A stretch of 64,000 nt of DNA, taken from Haliotis cracherodii (lineage: Eukaryota). A program made the translations under genes and the position numbers. Below the pieces are notes generated by a model, which saw only the letters and a program-made list of their open reading frames with translations, was not told the origin of the DNA and did no database searches. The DNA is taken from contig NW_027266319.1 in NCBI RefSeq assembly GCF_022045235.1, positions 22,444,001 to 22,508,000 of the forward strand, read 5' to 3'. Below, piece by piece: positions 1 to 52,140 of this stretch (its first letter is position 1; every line of letters starts with the position of its first letter).

Positions 1-97
1 CATATAGCGGGAATATTGCTGGGTGCTTCGTTTAACAACAAGTAAATAAACACACAAAAACATGGTTAAAGTGTGAATTTGGCTTTTCAAGATGAAA

Positions 98-3000
98 AGT
101 TTCATCTGTTTACTCCAACCCCAACAAGGGTTAATCTACAGGAGCTAGACTATTCCAGCAGAAAGGTTTCATGTGTTTACTCCAGCTCCAGCAAGGGTTA
201 ATCTACAGGAGCTAGACAATTCCAGCAGAAAGGTTTCATCTGTTTACTTCAACCCCAACAAGGGTTAATTACTGCAGGTAGACAATTACAGGAGAATAGT
301 TTCATGTGTTTACTCCAGCTCCAACAAGGGTTAATCTACAGGAGCCAGACAATTCCAGCAGAAAGGTTTCATGTGTTTACTCCAGCTCCAACAAGGGTTA
401 ATCTACAGGAGGTAGACTATTCCAGCAGAAAGGTTTCATGTGTTTACTCCAGCTCCAACAAGGGTTAATCTACAGGAGGTAGACAATTCCAGCAGAAAGG
501 TTTCATGTGTTTACTCCAGCTCCAACAAGGGTTAATCTACAGGAGCCAGACAATTCCAGCAGAAATGTTTCATGTGTTTACTCCAGCTCCAACAAGGGTT
601 AATCTACAGGAGGTAGACTATTCCAGCAGAAAGGTTTCATGTGTTTACTCCAGCTCCAACAAGGGTTAATCTACAGGAGGTAGACAATTCCAGCAGAAAG
701 GTTTCATGTGTTTACTCCAGCTCCAACAAGGGTTAATCTACAGGAGCCAGACAATTCCAGCAGAAAGGTTTCATGTGTTTACTCCAGCTCCAACAAGGGT
801 TAATCTACAGGAGCTAGACTATTCCAGCAGAAAGGTTTCATGTGTTTACTCCAGCTCCAACAAGGGTTAATCTACAGGAGCTAGACTATTCCAGCAGAAA
901 GGTTTCATGTGTTTACTCCAGCTCCAGCAAGGGTTAATCTACAGGAGCTAGACAATTCCAGCAGAAAGGTTTCATCTGTTTACTTCAACCCCAACAAGGG
1001 TTAATTACTGCAGGTAGACAATTACAGGAGAATAGTTTCATGTGTTTACTCCAGCTCCAGCAAGGGTTAATGTACAGTAGGTAGACTATTCCAGCAGAAA
1101 GGTTTCATGTGTTTACTCCAGGTCCAACAAGGGTTAATCTACAGGAGCTAGACTATTCCAGCAGAAAGGTTTCATGTGTTTACTCCAGGTCCAACAAGGG
1201 TTAATCTACAGGAGCTAGACTATTCCAGCAGAAAGGTTTCATGTGTTTACTCCAGGTCCAACAAGGGTTAATCTACAGGAGCTAGACTATTCCAGCAGAA
1301 AGGTTTCATGTGTTTACTCCAGGTCCAACAAGGGTTAATCTACAGGAGCTAGACTATTCCAGCAGAAAGGTTTCATGTGTTTACTCCAGCTCCAGCAAGG
1401 GTTAATGTACAGTAGGTAGACTATTCCAGCAGAAAGGTTTCATGTGTTTACTCCAGCTCCAACAAGGGTTAATCTACAGGAGGTAGACTACTCCAGCAGA
1501 AAGGTTTCATGTGTTTACTCCAGACCCAACAAGGGTTAATCTACAGGAGCTAGACTATTCCAGCAGAAAGGTTTCATGTGTTTACTCCAGACCCAACAAG
1601 GGTTAATCTACAGGAGCTAGACCATTCCAGCAGAAAGATTTCATCTGTTTACTCCAACCCCAACAAGGGTTAATCTACAGGAGCTAGACTATTCCAGCAG
1701 AAAGGTTTCATGTGTTTACTCCAGGTCCAACAAGGGTTAATCTACAGGAGCTAGACTATTCCAGCAGAAAGGTTTCATGTGTTTACTCCAGGTCCAACAA
1801 GGGTTAATCTACAGGAGCTAGACTATTCCAGCAGAAAGGTTTCATGTGTTTACTCCAGGTCCAACAAGGGTTAATCTACAGGAGCTAGACTATTCCAGCA
1901 GAAAGGTTTCATGTGTTTACTCCAGCTCCAGCAAGGGTTAATGTACAGTAGGTAGACTATTCCAGCAGAAAGGTTTCATGTGTTTACTCCAGCTCCAACA
2001 AGGGTTAATCTACAGGAGGTAGACTACTCCAGCAGAAAGGTTTCATGTGTTTACTCCAGACCCAACAAGGGTTAATCCACAGGAGCTAGACTATTCCAGC
2101 AGAAAGGTTTCATGTGTTTACTCCAGACCCAACAAGGGTTAATCTACAGGAGCTAGACCATTCCAGCAGAAAGATTTCATCTGTTTACTCCAACCCCAAC
2201 AAGGGTTAATCTACAGGAGCTAGACCATTCCAGCAGAAAGATTTCATCTGTTTACTCCAACCCCAACAAGGGTTAATCTACAGGAGCTAGACTATTCCAG
2301 CAAAAAGGTTTCATGTGTTTACTCCAGGTCCAACAAGGGTTAATCTACAGGAGCTAGACTATTCCAGCAGAAAGGTTTCATGTGTTTACTCCAGACCCAA
2401 CAAGGGTTAATCTACAGGAGCTAGACTATTCCAGCAGAAAGGTTTCATGTGTTTACTCCAACCCCAACAAGGGTTAATCTACAGGAGCTAGACCATTCCA
2501 GCAGAAAGATTTCATCTGTTTACTCCAACCCCAACAAGGGTTAATCTACAGGAGCTAGACTATTCCAGCAGAAAGGTTTCATGTGTTTACTCTAACCCCT
2601 ATAAGGGTTAATCTACAGGAGCTTAACTATTCCAGCAGAAAGGTTTCATCTGTTTACTCCAGCTCCAACAAGGGTTAATCTGCAGGAGCTAGACTATTCC
2701 AGCAGAAATGTTTCATCTGTTTACTCCAGCTCCAACAAGGGTTAATCTACAGGAGGTAGACTATTCCAGCAGAAAGGTTTCATGTGTTTACGCCAACCCC
2801 AACAAGGGTTAATTACTGCAGGTAGACAATTACAGGAGAATAGTTTCATGTGTTTACGCCGGCTCCAACAATGGTTAATGGAGCCAGACAATTCCAGCAG
2901 AAAGGTTTCATCTGTTTACTCCAACCCCAACAAGGGTTAATTACTGCAGGTAGACAATTACAGGAGAATAGTTTCATGTGTTTACGCCGGCTCCAACAAG

Positions 3001-3855
3001 GGTTAATTACTGCAGGTAGACAATTACAGGAGAATAGTTTCATGTGTTTACTCCAGCTCCAGCAAGGGTTAATCTACAGGAGCTAGACTATTCCAGCAGA
3101 AAGGTTTCATCTGTTTACTCTAACCCCTATAAGGGTTAATGTACAGGAGGTAGACTATTCCAGCAGAAGGATTTCATGTGTTTACTCCAACCCCAACAAG
3201 GGTTAATTACTGCAGGTAGACAATTACAGGAGAATAGTTTCATGTGTTTACGCCGGCTCCAACAAGGGTTAATGGAGCCAGACAATTCCAGCAGAAAGGT
3301 TTCATCTGTTTACTCCAACCCCAACAAGGGTTAATTACTGCAGGTAGACAATTACAGGAGAATAGTTTCATGTGTTTACGCCAGCTCCAACAAGGGTTAA
3401 TCTACAGGAGCCAGACAATTCCAGCAGAAAGGTTTCATCTGTTTACTCCAGCTCCAACAAGGGTCAATCTACAGGAGCTAGACTATTCCAGCAGAAGGCT
3501 TTTATGTGTTTACTCCAACCCCAACAAGGGTTAATCTACAGGCGCTAGACTACTCCAGCAGAAAGGTTTCATGTGTTAACTTCAACCCCAACAAGGGTTA
3601 ATCTACAGGAGCTAGACTATTCCAGCAGAAAGGTTTCATGTGTTAACTTCAACCCCAACAAGGGTTAATCTACAGGAGCTAGACTATTCCAGCAGAAAGA
3701 TTTCATGTGTTTACTCCAACCCCAACAAGGGTTAATCTACAGGAGCTAGACTACTCCAGCAGAAAGGTTTCATGTGGTTGTTCCTCACACAACAAGGGTT
3801 AATGTACAAGAGTTAGACTATTTAAACAGAAAGGTTTCATTTGCTTGTTCCAGCT
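98..3855. repeat. 67-bp tandem satellite, about 56 copies, with a second variant unit
   Basis: Unit aaggtttcatgtgtttactccagctccaacaagggttaatctacaggagctagactattccagcaga; variant unit contains ttaattactgcaggtagacaattacaggagaatag. Confidence 0.97.
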
Positions 3856-4594
3856 CTTTGGAAAATCAATAAAAGATGAAAGAAGAGATTAAATTTTCAA
3901 AGGTTGATTATCACTCAATGAATTGAAGGCCAGGGCCAGGTCATCACCTGGTTCAGTATTTTCAAAGTGTAACTATAGGATAGAACCTGAAATTTTAAGA
4001 TAGCGTGTTTCGGTATGTATATTCTGTGTAGGAAATACCAGAAAAGGAGATGTTTTACTGCTAGAGGAATCGCACCATATAGAAGTTGAAGCGTCAGGCT
4101 GTGATCTCAAGGGGTAGAAAGATTGATGGCAGTCCTTTGAATTATTCGTAAATAGGTCCTGAAAAGCTAGGAAGGGAAATATCTCTCAAGGGCAATGGTT
4201 AGCAGCAATCTGAATTTCATTTAGAATAGTGGACTTTTGTCTCGGTCTATTTTGCTGGTTACCATGGGCGTTGATAGCCAGGACGTTAGGATAATATGGT
4301 CAAGGCAAGTTTGGTCGTCTCACAAAAGCAAAAGATGCCTTGAGTCTTTTTCGTTAAAGTAGATTGGTTATGCAAGAGATTGTATCAGTGTTTATGGTAC
4401 CACTGAGGGATTCGGTCCAATGATTGATCCTTCTTTGATCATCTGAAGCATATAAATATTTATATCCAGATAAATGTACTGCAGGCTATTTAAGAAGATA
4501 AGCCTACTGTGTTGGAGATAGAGAGCTATGTTTGGATGGTTTCTTGGAAATGGGTAGGGTCATCGCTAGTGGTGGAAAGTATTGTAGTTTACTA

Positions 4595-30694: not shown

Positions 30695-32283
30695 CAGATA
30701 ATTAGATACATGTAAGTGAAGCCAGTGATAATGAGATACATGTAAGTGAAGCCAATGATAATGAGATACATGTTAGTGAAGCCAGTGATAATGAGATACA
30801 TGTAAGTGAAGCCAGTGATAATTAGATACATGTAAGTGAAGCCAGTGATAATTAGATACATGTAAGTGAAGCCAATGATAATCAGATACATGTAAGTGAA
30901 GCCAGTGATAATTAGATACATGTAAGTGAAGCCAGTGATAATTAGATACATGTAAGTGAAGCCAGTGATAATCAGATACATGTAAGTGAAGCCAGTGATA
31001 ATTAGATACATGTAAGTGAAGCCAGTGATAATTAGATACATGTAAGTGAAGCCAATGATAATCAGATACATGTAAGTGAAGCCAGTGATAATTAGATACA
31101 TGTAAGTGAAGCCAGTGATAATTAGATACATGTAAGTGAAGCCAGTGATAATCAGATACATGTAAGTGAAGCCAGTGATAATTAGATACATGTAAGTGAA
31201 GCCAATGATAATGAGATACATGTAAGTGAAGCCAGTGATAATTAGATACATGTAAGTGAAGCCAGTGATAATTAGATACATGTAAGTGAAGCCAGTGATA
31301 ATTAGATACATGTAAGTGAAGCCAGTGATAATGAGATACATGTAAGTGAAGCCAGTGATAATTAGATACATGTAAGTGAAGCCAATGATAATGAGATACA
31401 TGTAAGTGAAGCCAGTGATAATTAGATACATGTAAGTGAAGCCAGTGATAATCAGATACATGTAAGTGAAGCCAGTGATAATGAGATACATGTAAGTGAA
31501 GCCAGTGATAATGAGATACATGTAAGTGAAGCCAGTGATAATGAGATACATGTAAGTGAAGCCAGTGATAATGAGATACATGTAAGTGAAGCCAGTGATA
31601 ATGAGATACATGTAAGTGAAGCCAGTGATAATGAGATACATGTAAGTGAAGCCAGTGATAATGAGATACATGTAAGTAAAGCCAATGATAATGAGATACA
31701 TGTAAGTGAAGCCAATGATAATGAGATACATGTAAGTAAAGCCAGTGATAATGAGATACATGTAAGTGAAGCCAGTGATAATGAGATACATGTAAGTGAA
31801 GCCAGTGATAATGAGATACATGTAAGTGAAGCCAGTGATAATGAGATACATGTAAGTGAAGCCAGTGATAATGAGATACATGTAAGTGAAGCCAGTGATA
31901 ATCAGATACATTTAAGTGAAGCCAGTGATAATGAGATACATGTAAGTGAAGCCAGTGATAATGAGATACATGTAAGTGAAGCCAGTGATAATGAGATACA
32001 TGTAAGTGAAGCCAGTGATAATCAGATACATGTAAGTGAAGCCAGTGATAATTAGATAATGTAAGTGAAGCCAGTGATAATTAGATACATGTTAGTGAAG
32101 CCAGTGATAATGAGATACATGTAAGTGAAGCCAGTGATAATTAGATACATGTAAGTGAAGCCAGTGATAATCAGATACATGTAAGTGAAGCCAGTGATAA
32201 TTAGATACATGTAAGTGAAGCCAATGATAATCAGATACATGTAAGTGAAGCCAGTGATAATTAGATAATGTAAGTGAAGCCAG
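30695..32283. repeat. Highly homogeneous 30-bp minisatellite, about 53 copies, in TIMP intron 1
   Basis: Unit gccagtgataat(t/g/c)agatacatgtaagtgaa. Confidence 0.98.
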
Positions 32284-32680
32284 TAGCAACGTTAATGCTG
32301 ACAGATTAATATGTCATGTGTTCATATGTATGTCCATCTCATTCCAAGGGGTGATTAAGAGGTTTTGATATCTATGAATGAATTTTTTTTTTAACCAATA
32401 CCATTGTAAATAACTTCCTAACTGTACGCATGATAGCCTGGAAGCTTTCGCGATACACAATATCAATTAATGAAAACAACAACAACATGATTACAGTAGG
32501 GAAGCAAGTATGGAGGTATAGAAGGGACAATTCCCATCTAAACATTTTTATTGCAGGAAAAGCCACACGGCTAGAAAATACATCAACCAAGACTAATTAT
32601 CTAAAACAGAAATCACACAAAAAAAGTTTACAACCCAAGACTGAATGTTCAACATTAGCTTTCAGTAAAGGATATGTTAT

Positions 32681-38819: not shown

Positions 38820-40130
38820 ATTATTGTTGATAATATACAGACATCATTGTTGATGTCATACAGACACTATTGTTGATGTCATACAGACACTATTGTTGAT
38901 GTCATAAGGATACTATTGTTGATGTAATACAGACACCATTGTTGATGTCATATAGACACCATTGTTGATGTCATACAGACAATATTGTTGCTGTAATACC
39001 TACAATATTGTTGATGTAATACAGACGATATTGTTGATGTCATACAGACACTATTGTTGATGTCACACAGACACCATTGCTGATGTCATGCAGACACTAT
39101 TGTTGATGTCACACAGACACCATTGTTGATGTCACACAGACACCATTGCTGATGTAATACAGACGATATTGTTGATGTCATACAGACACCATTGTTGATG
39201 TCATACAGAAACCATTGCTGATGTCACACAGACACCATTGCTGATGTCACACAGACACCATTGTTGATGTCATGCAGACACCATTGTTGATGTCATGCAG
39301 ACACCATTGCTGATGTTCCACAGAAACCATTGTTGATGTAATACAGACGATATTGTTGATGTCATATAGACACCATTGTTGATGTCATACAGACACCATT
39401 GCTGATGTCATGCAGACACTATTGTTGATGTCACACAGACACAATTGTTGATGTCACACAGACACCATTGCTGATGTCACACAGACACCATTGTTGATGT
39501 CACACAGACACCATTGCTGATGTCATGCAGACACCATTGTTGATGTCATACAGACACCATTGCTGATGTCCCACAGAAACCATTGCTGATGTCATGCAGA
39601 CACCATTGTTGATGTCATGCGGATGTCATTGCTGATATCATGCAGACACCATTGTTGATGTCATACAGACACTATTGTTGATGTCACACAGACACCATTG
39701 CTGATGTCATGCAGACACCATTGCTGATGTCACACAGACACCATTGCTGATGTCACACAGACACCATTGCTGATGTCACACAGACACCACTGTTGATGTC
39801 ACACAGACACCATTGCTGATGTCACACAGACACCATTGCTGATGTCATGCAGACACCATTGTTGATGTCATACAGACACCATTGCTGATGTCCCACAGAA
39901 ACCATTGTTGATGTCATGCAGATGCCATTGCTGATGTCACACAGACACCAATGTTGATGTCATGCAGACACCATTGTTGATGTCATGCAGATGCCATTGC
40001 TGATATCATGCAGGCACCATTGTTGATGTCATACAGACACTATTGTTGATGTCATACAGACACCATTGTTGATGTCATGCAGACACCATTGTTAATGTCA
40101 TGCAGATGCCACTGCTGATGTAATAAGACA
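38820..40130. repeat. 23-bp minisatellite, about 57 copies
   Basis: Unit cattg(t/c)tgatgtca(t/c)acagacac. Confidence 0.95.
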
Positions 40131-41375
40131 CAATGTGTTATGACATCACAGTAGTGTATGATGCCACATCCTATCACTGTTAACTAATTTTAAAGTCTTG
40201 ATAATGAAGACATTGTTTCATCTTACACACACAATACTATCGGTACATCATTGTTCAAAGATACTGTCACATGGGGCTTCTGGCTTGAATAACAATCCAT
40301 GCTTGTTTTAAGAGTTGACTAAACTGATCGGGCGGTCAGGCTCTTAGAGCGGAATGATTATACACCACTGCAGTCATATACAGTCGATCCCCTTTATCTC
40401 GAATCTTGCAGGACTTCAAGATATCAGGACTTTTGAGTAAACGAGACATGAGTAGCAATATTATAGATCAAAGCAATGCGATTGCATACACAAGAAATTA
40501 AGAACTTGTGTCTGTGATGACAAATTAAAATGTATTTCACGGCAATGTTTAATAACAATTCTGACAGGTTATGTACAATATACATGTACCTTTTGAGGCA
40601 TAGCAGCAATCACTATTTAATCTGTCCACTTGACAATGTATTGCAATGTGCTGAATTAAACAAGCAAACAAACAAACAAACAAACAAACATCGACGTTGC
40701 CATTGCTAAGATTGCTTCAATATGTCCTAGTTAAGATTTATCCTGTTTTGTTGAAGGAAACATCTCACCAGTGTGCATTTGTTCACAGTCTACTAAAATG
40801 ATTTGAAAACGTATTCCAGTATTCCAAAAAAGAAAATAGAAAGCACATCAAGTGTGCAAAAATAAGTTTTATGGAATACACTATTGAATAAATTTGATTA
40901 ATTTCCAAATCATGGTCATTCTATATAGTATGAATAAGTTGAACATTTTATATTTTTTATATAACAGTTAAGAAATTATGACATCTTTATAGTTATCACT
41001 GCATAGAGATTGCCCTTGTTTCTACCCAGGCTGATGCTTGGCATTAAGGGCTAAAACAAGGATTGGTTGGCTCGGAGTCGGTATACTGTGTCTGAGTGGG
41101 GTGTTCATGTTAACCTGTGGCAGGGTATCTCAGTGGACTAGCACTATAAGTCCAGACGACACTCACACAGGTGTATGCTCGTTGCAATGTAAGTGCAATA
41201 ATCTTGAATGCAGTGTTGAACCCCACTTCACCACACCCCACAGTTACCACTGAGCAGTGATAGTAGTCACTACAATATAAGATACTATAAAGGGACCTAC
41301 AGTATATGCTTATATTTACATATATTCACTGTTTCCACCTTCAATAAATGTCATTAGGGACTGACCAATTGATAT

Positions 41376-45408: not shown

Positions 45409-45551
45409 GTGAAGATAGACTCTCCTCATTCATTTCAAGATATAGCAAGCGTGGTGGCGGTCACTAGATCATATGCCACTACTGAGCAGTTTATTGAAGG
45501 CAAATACGATATCCATGTTCAGAAAATTGGAAACAATTACAAAGCCTACTT
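45409..45551 (+). CDS. SYN: Synapsin mutually exclusive exon A: [47 protein letters not shown](L)
   Basis: Boundaries cctag|GTG and TT|gtgagt; 143 nt, open frame, phase 0-2; absent from the ORF track; paralogous to 46111-46253. Confidence 0.9.
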
Positions 45552-46110: not shown

Positions 46111-46253
46111 GTTAGACTAGGCAGCCATTATGATTTTCAAGACATAGCAGGGGTGGTAGCAGTTACCTCCTGTTATTCCACAACCGAACCCTACATTGAC
46201 AGCAAATACGACCTTCACATTCAGAAGATAGGCAATAAGTACAAGGCATTCAT
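46111..46253 (+). CDS. SYN: Synapsin mutually exclusive exon B: VRLGSHYDFQDIAGVVAVTSCYSTTEPYIDSKYDLHIQKIGNKYKAF(M)
   Basis: Boundaries ctcag|GTT and AT|gtaagt; 143 nt, phase 0-2. Confidence 0.93.
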
Positions 46254-49949: not shown

Positions 49950-50024
49950 GAGGAAGTCAATATCAGGGAACTGGAAGGCTAACACAGGATCAGCCATGTT
50001 AGAACAGATCGCCATGAATGAGAG
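49950..50024 (+). CDS. SYN: Synapsin exon [24 protein letters not shown](R)
   Basis: Boundaries ctgcag|G and AG|gtaagg; [20 protein letters not shown] is a highly conserved synapsin motif. Confidence 0.96.
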
Positions 50025-50232
50025 GTAAGGGTCATGTCATGTGAAGGGTAAAACACGCTCCCAAGGGTTTGTTTGATGTGTGAACATTAGCGAGAGGTAG
50101 CAGTGCTACACCTATTATGCTATACCTGTACATTTAACAAATATAATTAGTAGAACCTATGCAGCCTCCACCATTATCTTCAGTCTTCTATAGCAAAGTA
50201 GATGCAGACTCTTGCAGTATGTAAGGCTGGAT

Positions 50233-50743
50233 ATATGGGTACATTAATGTATATGTTCTCTGCAAAGATTCAAGGCTTGGGTACATTAATGTATATGTTC
50301 TCTGCATAGATTCAAGGCTTGGGTACATTAATGTATATGTTCTCTGCTTAGATTCAAGGCTTGGGTACATTAATGTATATGTTCTCTGCATAGATTCAAG
50401 GCTTGGGTACATTAATGTATATGTTCTCTGCTTAGATTCAAGGCTTTGGTACATTAATGTATATGTTCTCTGCATAGATTCAAGGCTTGGGTACATTAAT
50501 GTACATGTTCTCTGCTTAGATTCAAGGCTTGGGTACATTAATGTATATGTTCTCTGCTTAGATTCAATGATTGAGTACATTAATGTATATGTTCTCTGCA
50601 TAGATTCAAGGCTTGGGTGCATTAATGTATATGTTCTCTGCTTAGATTCAATGATTGAGTACATTAATGTATATGTTCTCTGCATAGATTCAAGGCTTGG
50701 GTGCATTAATGTATATGTTCTCTGCTTAGATTCAAGATATGGG
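50233..50743 (+). repeat. 42-bp minisatellite (12 units) containing the synapsin splice acceptor
   Basis: Unit gggtacattaatgtatatgttctctgc(t/a)tagattcaaggctt; the last unit's AG (50728-50729) is the real acceptor. Confidence 0.95.
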
Positions 50744-50832
50744 CAGACGAATGTGCAGAAATGTTTGGAGGGCTTGACATGGTGGCTGTGGAAGCAATAC
50801 AAGGCAAGGATGGGAAAGAGTACATCATTGAG
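50730..50832 (+). CDS. SYN: Synapsin exon [34 protein letters not shown]
   Basis: Boundaries tctgcttag|A and GAG|gtgagt; FGGLD..AVEA..GKDG..YIIE motif. Confidence 0.95.
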
Positions 50833-51095
50833 GTGAGTTGAATGTGTCTGGTTAATGTGATGAGATTAGCATGGTGAGTTTAGTGAATGTACTTAGGCTT
50901 CTACAGGTAAGACTTCAGTATACCATTAAGAAACCTTTACATCATTGTCAAAGGGCGTTATTCAGTACTGACATTTGGGCATTTAAGGATAATCAAAACG
51001 ATCTATGCTTTGTATGTTAGACTAAATTGGGTACTGGGATACTTTGTGGATTACATATCCTGTGTGGATTGTGTTCATCATATGTATCGCTGCAG

Positions 51096-51221: not shown

Positions 51222-52140
51222 GAGGAGGGAGAGGAGGAAGGGTCACAGAGCCAGGGTGGAGGGAGGGGATGTTGAAACCAGGGAGGGAGATGCCAGGGAG
51301 GAGGGAGGCGATGAGAGGGCCAAGGAGGAGATAGGGGACAAGAGGGTCAGGGAGGGAGGTGTCAGGGTGGAAGGAGGCGACGAGAGGGCCAAGGAGGAGA
51401 TGGGGGCCAAGGGGGCAGGGACGGAGGTGCCAGGGAGGAAGGAGTCGATGAGAGGGCCAAGGAGGAGATATAGGACAAGGGGCCCAGGGAGGGAGGTGTC
51501 AGGGTGGAAGGAGGCGACGAGAGGGCTAAGGAGGAGATACAGAACAAGGGTGCAGGGAGGAGGAAGGCGACGAGAGGGCCAAGGAGGAGATAGAGGACAA
51601 GGGGCCCAGGAAGGGAGGAGCCAGGGAGGAGGGAGGCGACGAGAGGGCCAAGGAGGAGATAGGGAACAAGGGGGCAGGGAGGGAGGAGCCAGGGAGGAGG
51701 GAGGCGACGAGAGGGCTAAGGAGGAGATAGGGGCCAGGGAGGAGGGAGGGGACACTGGAGCCTGGAATGGAGGTGCCAGGGAGGAGGGAGATGACAAGCG
51801 GGCCAAAGAGGAGATAGAGGACAAGGGGGCAGGGAGGGAGGTGCCAAGGAGGAGGGTGACGAGAAGAAGGCCAAGGAGGAAATAGAGGACAAGGAGGCAG
51901 GGAGGGAATGATGGAAGAGAGGGCTAGAGAAGAGGGAGGAGGGAAGTGCAGGAGGGGGCAGGGAGGAATTACGAGATGAGTGGCCCAGGGAGGGGATAGG
52001 GTAACAAAGCCAAGGATGTATGGGGTGAGAGGGCCAGAGAGGAGTGAAAGGGTCAGGGAAGAGGGAGAGGATAATAAAGGAGAGGAGGAGGGATTGGACG
52101 AGAGGGCCAAGAAGGGATGAGATAGCTGGAGAGAAGGGAC
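51222..52140. repeat. Purine-rich (GGA/GGG) degenerate repeat in a synapsin intron
   Basis: Recurrent gagggccaaggaggagatag and cagggaggagggagg blocks. Confidence 0.88.

What the first reader, a model, noticed from the sequence alone, without database searches (positions are those of the whole stretch)
50233..50743. Minisatellite built from an exon's own splice acceptor: 11 in-register decoy 3' splice sites, each leading to a stop
Seen: the 42-bp unit comprises a branch-like cattaat, a pyrimidine tract, AG and the first exon bases (attcaa), with AGs at 50267, 50309 ... 50729. A 7-nt microhomology atatggg at 50233 and 50737 (exactly 12x42 apart) explains its origin. Using any upstream AG gives ...TTC AAG GCT TGG GTA CAT TAA or TTC AAT GAT TGA, a premature stop. 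The spliceosome must therefore skip 11 near-identical acceptors. Inference: exon definition from the downstream donor picks the last AG, and copy number could tune synapsin dosage through NMD.
Basis: partly seen in the sequence, partly recalled or inferred. Interest (0 to 1): 0.7.

Follow-up and report, generated by a model that had tools for sequence, protein, structure and literature searches.

The report
Synapsin splice-acceptor "mirage" minisatellite
The end of an intron and the first bases of the next exon of an invertebrate synapsin gene are repeated twelve times, the spliced RNA examined joins only to the last copy, and similar repeats sit at many other exon borders of this genome, so it is likely a harmless repeat of a kind already described in lancelets.

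Summary
The array is real: 12 x 42 bp at 50233-50736. It is also present in 3 of 3 DNA runs laid, from two organisms. Each unit is 28 nt of intron end plus 14 nt derived from the exon start. All 11 upstream in-register AGs give a premature stop. RNA contigs from 5 of 5 runs (three organisms) join the upstream exon to 50730; contigs drop rare forms, so low-level decoy use is untested. The 7-nt microhomology is overstated: 7 of 7 runs covering 50738 read C, leaving 5 nt. The acceptor sequence does not decide the choice: one decoy is identical from -28 to +6, and the last unit differs between alleles. Position next to the true exon likely does. This is the 'mirage' class of amphioxus (PMC3087553). 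In my survey, 10 clear cases lay at 257 kinase and kinesin exon hits of this genome (3 acceptor, 7 donor). Earlier notes of this scan report the same kind on other DNA, this genome included. Nothing supports dosage tuning. Ordinary; interest 0.15.

The parts
49950..50024 (+). Upstream synapsin exon (75 nt), GT donor at 50025
   Evidence: Pfam Synapsin_C 115-138; RNA contigs of X8, X9, X17 map 49950-50024; splice signals
50025..50729 (+). Intron of 705 nt whose 3' 497 nt are the array
   Evidence: Loose ends of RNA contigs give the join of 50024 to 50730
50233..50736 (+). 12 x 42-bp minisatellite. Unit = 28 nt intron end (branch-like TTAAT inside a 12-nt palindrome, short pyrimidine tract, AG) plus 14 nt derived from the exon start
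   Evidence: units in DNA runs X5, X10, X11
50266..50687 (+). 11 in-register decoy AGs (G at 50267+42k): 1 AAG and 10 TAG, each followed by an in-frame stop if used
50702..50729 (+). Functional acceptor (last unit); identical from -28 to +6 to the decoy ending at 50645
   Evidence: RNA junction
50233..50239 (+). Left microhomology copy (ATATGGG)
50737..50743 (+). Right microhomology copy, exonic; position 50738 reads C in 7 of 7 runs that cover it
50730..50832 (+). True exon (103 nt), purine-rich, GT donor at 50833
   Evidence: Pfam 140-173; PDB synapsin matches; joint skipping 263 nt in X7 and X14; composition

Best explanation
This is a 12-copy tandem repeat of the synapsin intron/exon junction (a 'mirage' minisatellite); the spliced RNA examined uses the last copy, and the array is likely a tolerated by-product with no regulatory role. 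Origin (inferred): a 42-bp duplication at a short microhomology shared by the intron and the exon start, followed by expansion and turnover of units, before organisms A and B split. Choice of acceptor (inferred): position. Only the last AG is followed by the purine-rich true exon and its donor 103 nt away, which would stabilise it across the exon. Each decoy AG instead has the next unit's branch-like A 21 nt behind it, so a U2 particle loaded on the next unit would cover the decoy. Rare errors would carry a stop more than 100 nt before the next junction and would likely be removed by NMD.
For: Canonical junction in 5 of 5 RNA runs laid, three organisms. The acceptor sequence cannot be the discriminator: decoy 9 equals the real site from -28 to +6, and the exon-contiguous unit ends CTTAG in the window but reads A at 50726 (CATAG, the other decoy type) in X5 and X10. 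The exon has 67% purines and 4 GAA words; the array has 46% and none. Unit junctions form a series from the exon's ACATGGG (a unit in X10, loose end of 2 contigs at 0.77 agreement) through GCATGGG (X11) to GCTTGGG (window). The class is common here: 10 clear splice-site-spanning arrays at 257 exon hits in 900 kb, three of them at acceptors (L062, L090, L096). Published mirages are reported not to interfere with splicing (PMC3087553, PMC3902484, passages), and the downstream copy is favoured in the two-copy CBS 844ins68 case (PMC2630376, passage).
Against: All runs are assembled contigs, which drop rare forms, and NMD would hide decoy products, so decoy use is not measured. The RNA comes from animals other than the assembled one (they differ at 50738) and their array lengths are unknown; no DNA of organism C was listed. 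Exon size alone cannot exclude the nearest decoys, which would give exons of 145, 187 and 229 nt (lengths corrected by 2). The U2-masking step rests on recalled footprint data and was not tested. The array persists in two organisms about 2.5-4% apart in the flanks, which neutrality allows but does not predict. Spanning arrays were somewhat more frequent than random placement gives (10 against 4.2).
Confidence: 0.85

Rival explanations
1. Decoys are used at a real rate but the products are destroyed by NMD, so that array length sets synapsin dosage.
For: All 11 in-register decoys give stops more than 100 nt before the next junction. Some human donor-side arrays do use the nearest pseudo-sites (IFI6, CBS intron 13, as summarised in the introduction of PMC1557585). 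The array is present in two organisms.
Against: The stop is the TAA of the branch-like motif falling in frame, which an AT-rich intron piece often gives (inference). A duplication with unused copies is the only form that keeps the gene intact, so the pattern is expected by ascertainment. The same arrangement lies at kinesin and kinase exons. No result here shows dosage variation.
Confidence: 0.07
2. RNA structure hides the decoys: the 12-nt palindrome around the branch-like motif pairs between units and leaves only the last acceptor free.
For: The core is a perfect palindrome and the array folds better than 100 of 100 shuffles (z -4.0).
Against: In the predictions the real acceptor is no more open than the decoys at any of 3 pairing spans, and its pyrimidine tract has the lowest or near-lowest unpaired probability (0.06, 0.22, 0.20). 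Acceptor arrays in other genes have unrelated units.
Confidence: 0.05
3. The array is an assembly artefact.
For: No long reads were listed, and the assembly has two bases (49980, 50738) that no laid run shares.
Against: Multi-copy unit contigs occur in 3 of 3 DNA runs laid, and both flank-to-unit junctions are seen in X5. The units carry several distinct variants.
Confidence: 0.02

Closest known systems
Amphioxus 'mirage' minisatellites: globin BflGb6, also BflGb9, Adh3, troponin C, PGBD5 (PMC3087553 and PMC3902484, passages read)
   Same: Tandem duplication of an intron/exon boundary. BflGb6 is acceptor-type (3' end of the intron plus 5' part of exon 2), has 6 and 3 units in two haplotypes, keeps many splice signals, and RT-PCR suggests normal splicing.
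   Different: Another animal and gene; unit 42 bp against 150-160 bp in BflGb6 (Adh3 units 10-72 bp); 12 copies. Somatic instability, reported for Adh3, was not tested here.
Human CBS 844ins68 (PMC2630376, passage read; the primary papers were not held)
   Same: Duplicated intron 7/exon 8 junction; the downstream site is strongly favoured and the mRNA is normal.
   Different: Two copies, not an array. The passage calls the sites 'donor' while the cited paper's title says 3' splice site.
Human F7 intron 7 37-bp VNTR, with IFI6, CBS intron 13, LMNB2 and PDGF arrays (PMC1557585; abstract, introduction and discussion read)
   Same: Minisatellite whose terminal unit holds the real splice site; identical pseudo-sites are functional but silent, and position relative to the exon decides.
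   Different: Donor side, the mirror image. There the exon-proximal site is the first met in transcription; here it is the last, so simple 5'-to-3' scanning cannot explain it.

Membership tests
Mirage minisatellite (as described in PMC3087553) | Head-to-tail tandem repeat whose unit spans an intron/exon boundary | tested here: met
   28 nt intron + 14 nt exon-derived, 12 copies
Mirage minisatellite (as described in PMC3087553) | The terminal unit is the authentic boundary and extra copies lie in the intron | tested here: met
   Pfam register 138/140; RNA junction to 50730
Mirage minisatellite (as described in PMC3087553) | Many copies keep the AG or GT signal | tested here: met
   11 of 11 upstream copies keep AG, 10 as TAG
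Mirage minisatellite (as described in PMC3087553) | Regular splicing is maintained | tested here: met
   Canonical junction in contigs of 5 of 5 RNA runs laid. This shows the major form only; minor forms are not testable with contigs.
Mirage minisatellite (as described in PMC3087553) | Length instability between alleles or somatically | tested here: inconclusive
   Unit variants and the terminal unit differ between the window, X5, X10 and X11, but short-read contigs give no copy number
Regulated unproductive splicing (AS-NMD switch) | Alternative acceptor used at a measurable, regulated rate, with the product stabilised when NMD is blocked | not testable with these tools
   Only contigs were listed; no raw reads and no NMD-inhibited samples
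Regulated unproductive splicing (AS-NMD switch) | Premature stop more than 50 nt upstream of a downstream junction | tested here: met
   All 11 in-register decoys; necessary, not sufficient; the 50-nt rule is recalled and untested in this animal

The most novel reading that the evidence does not exclude
The array is a heritable rheostat: a share of synapsin transcripts is spliced to decoy acceptors and destroyed by NMD, the share rises with copy number, and because about 1-3% of splice sites in this genome carry such arrays, mirages form a genome-wide layer of hidden, allele-length-dependent dosage variation.
Probability: 0.06. Interest if true: 0.6.

Novelty: new member of a known kind. Interest (0 to 1): 0.15.

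Why it matters
As a single locus it matters little: it is one more mirage, and the major mRNA is normal. Its use is as a natural test of 3' splice-site choice. Near-identical acceptors at 42-nt steps, with alleles in which the working acceptor is of either decoy type, separate position from sequence without engineering. The survey adds a rough rate: 10 clear cases at up to 514 exon edges (about 2%). If typical, that means thousands per genome (assuming some 200,000 introns, not counted here), which matters for gene annotation and read mapping and suggests that such duplications are barely selected against.

Tried and rejected
1) No RNA contig lay on array units in the 5 RNA runs laid. Contigs drop rare forms, so this is no evidence of absence. 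2) No listed holder is on record as RNA; the five used are marked 'RNA?', but their contigs skip introns at GT..AG. 5 of 7 'RNA?' runs and 3 of 11 DNA runs were laid. 4) Structural masking of decoys: not supported. 5) An exon-size limit as the sole rule: rejected, since the nearest decoys give ordinary exon sizes. 6) The 7-nt microhomology as the ancestral state: rejected in favour of 5 nt, or 6 of 7; whether the T at 50738 is a rare allele or an assembly error is open. 7) A search for full-length synapsin relatives failed on query length and was not repeated, so the taxon was not tested. 8) The myosin search was not used for the survey because one tandem cluster dominated it. 9) The primary papers on CBS 844ins68 and on Adh3 mirages were not held. 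10) Searches for a genome-wide count of such repeats gave none in the listings; one search for mutually exclusive synapsin exons in molluscs gave 0 papers; one on competing duplicated acceptors gave listings that I did not read. PMC10078293 (passages) held nothing on units that repeat a splice site. The library lacks most subscription journals. No supplements were read.

Full report
Observation. The window holds the only synapsin locus found in this genome. Between an exon at 49950-50024 and one at 50730-50832 lies a 705-nt intron whose 3' end is a 42-bp tandem array (TRF: 11.9 copies, 93% matches). Cut at 50233 it gives exactly 12 units, with an AG at 50267+42k. The two exons match Pfam Synapsin_C positions 115-138 and 140-173 and the second matches solved vertebrate synapsins, so the conserved protein needs the last AG. 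In a script, all 11 upstream in-register AGs gave an in-frame stop within a few codons; the other AGs in the array shift the frame. That script used 50834/51098 for the next intron, two bases right of the true 50832/51096. The joined sequence is the same, but its printed exon lengths are 2 too long. Unit 0 ends in AAG and the other ten decoys in TAG.

Is it real DNA? The run search listed 18 runs, all as contigs. I laid 8 of them on two stretches, each holding two units and one flank. In X5 (organism A) unit contigs have depth 191, 221 and 55 against 28-36 for unique sequence; one contig joins the left flank to a unit and another joins a unit to the exon. X10 and X11 (organism B, a few percent diverged in the flanks) also hold several unit variants at raised depth. 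The array is therefore real and shared by two organisms. Its length in those animals is not measurable from contigs.

Which acceptor is used? In 5 of 5 RNA-type runs laid (X7, X8, X9 of organism A; X14 of B; X17 of C) one contig joins the end of the upstream exon to 50730 (loose ends), and X7 and X14 also skip the next intron at GT..AG. This shows the major product. It cannot show minor products: contigs drop rare forms, NMD would deplete decoy products, and these animals' array alleles are unknown.

Origin. That fits the data better. The inner junctions in the window read GCTTGGG, X11 has a GCATGGG unit, and X10 has a unit that keeps the exon's ACATGGG (2 contigs, agreement 0.77), a one-step series. 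So the unit is 28 nt of intron plus 14 nt of exon, made by a duplication at a short microhomology (inferred) and then expanded.

How the last AG likely wins. Shown: the acceptor sequence cannot decide. Decoy 9 is identical to the real site from -28 to +6, and the exon-contiguous unit is CTTAG-type in the window but CATAG-type in X5 and X10; both types also occur as decoys. Shown: the true exon is 67% purine with 4 GAA words, against 46% and none in the array, and a consensus donor follows after 103 nt. Not sufficient: exon size, since the nearest decoys would give 145, 187 and 229 nt. Not supported: masking by structure. The array folds well (z -4.0) through a 12-nt palindrome, but the real site is predicted to be no more open than the decoys. 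Inferred: cross-exon stabilisation of the last site, helped by geometry. Each decoy AG lies 21 nt before the next unit's branch-like A, inside the stretch that U2/SF3 is recalled to cover, so each occupied unit would mask the one before it and only the last is free. The footprint is from memory and from no call.

Is it special in this genome? I took 50 ten-kb stretches around kinase matches with short open frames (50 of 136 matches) and 40 around kinesin matches (116 of 125 matches). They hold 257 exon hits and 166 arrays with period of 15 or more and at least 2.8 copies. Thirty-six array/exon pairs lay near each other and were read by eye. Ten arrays clearly repeat the splice site: acceptors in L062 (52 bp x 17.5; 7 AG-type copies with the real one, 10 mutated), L090 (42 copies) and L096 (25 copies in the part fetched), and donors in L050, L079, L085, L090, L103, L117 and L118. 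Three more are probable (L041, L068, L111); the other 23 pairs do not span a site or were unclear. Splice sites there were inferred from homology and GT/AG, not from RNA. The rate is about 2% of at most 514 edges. Random placement predicts 4.2 (Poisson P 0.011 for 10; acceptors 3 against 2.1, donors 7 against 2.1). The null is crude and rests on two gene families, so I read it as no sign of depletion, with a possible excess at donors.

What is known. Tandem repeats of intron/exon boundaries are described in amphioxus as 'mirages'. BflGb6 is acceptor-type with 6 and 3 units in two haplotypes, and RT-PCR suggests regular splicing (PMC3087553, passages; PMC3902484, passage). Human donor-side arrays (F7, IFI6, CBS intron 13, LMNB2, PDGF) are summarised in PMC1557585, which shows by mutagenesis that position decides for F7 (abstract, introduction, discussion). 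CBS 844ins68 is a two-copy junction duplication in which the downstream site is favoured (PMC2630376, passage). I had reached the mirage reading before the look-ups in earlier notes, which list the same kind in several genomes and at least six times in this one. Those notes call this genome an abalone; I did not test that, and they are not evidence.

Verdict. It is a new member of a known kind and common in this genome. The dosage-rheostat idea is unsupported but not excluded (about 0.06). Interest 0.15.

Noticed in passing
window 45409-45551 and 46111-46253: Two paralogous 143-nt synapsin exons cover the same Pfam positions (62-115, 66-116). Including both or neither shifts the frame, so they are likely mutually exclusive. 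The contigs of X7, X14, X8, X9 and X17 begin one base before the next exon, the one base both exons share at their ends, as a graph branch would give. One paper search found nothing.
   Followed up: partly
window 50067 (run X11, organism B): The contig leaves the window's intron sequence at 50067 and continues with a tRNA-like stretch, possibly a SINE insertion in organism B's copy of this intron; the tRNA likeness is judged by eye.
   Followed up: no
window 49980 and 50738: The assembly has T at both places, while all laid runs that cover them read C (4 of 4 and 7 of 7). 50738 changes Thr to Ile. Rare haplotype or assembly error.
   Followed up: partly
L050 2025-2733, L085 4568-6889, L090 2411-5109 and 6587-7416, L096 1-1193, L062 2464-3373, L079 626-1375, L103 2013-3927, L117 8707-9464, L118 3637-6557 (gene-strand coordinates): Ten further mirage arrays at kinase and kinesin exons. 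L050 and L085 repeat about 70 nt of coding exon with its donor; L090 has one array at an acceptor and one at a donor of the same gene.
   Followed up: partly
window 50282-50293 and equivalents in each unit: The branch-like motif sits in a perfect 12-nt palindrome, which may promote slippage or inter-unit pairing.
   Followed up: partly
G000:C74 (4486-5433 and 24214-24885): Intronless kinesin and kinase matches that read through many TAA and some TAG codons; likely a contig of another organism with a ciliate-type code in the assembly.
   Followed up: no
G000:C12 about 64.58-64.96 Mb: A tandem cluster of about 15 myosin-head genes.
   Followed up: no
window 94-3856, 30697-32284, 38822-40151, 51279-51907: The synapsin introns hold many other long minisatellites (53 TRF rows in the window). 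None that I compared with the mapped exons spans an exon edge.
   Followed up: partly
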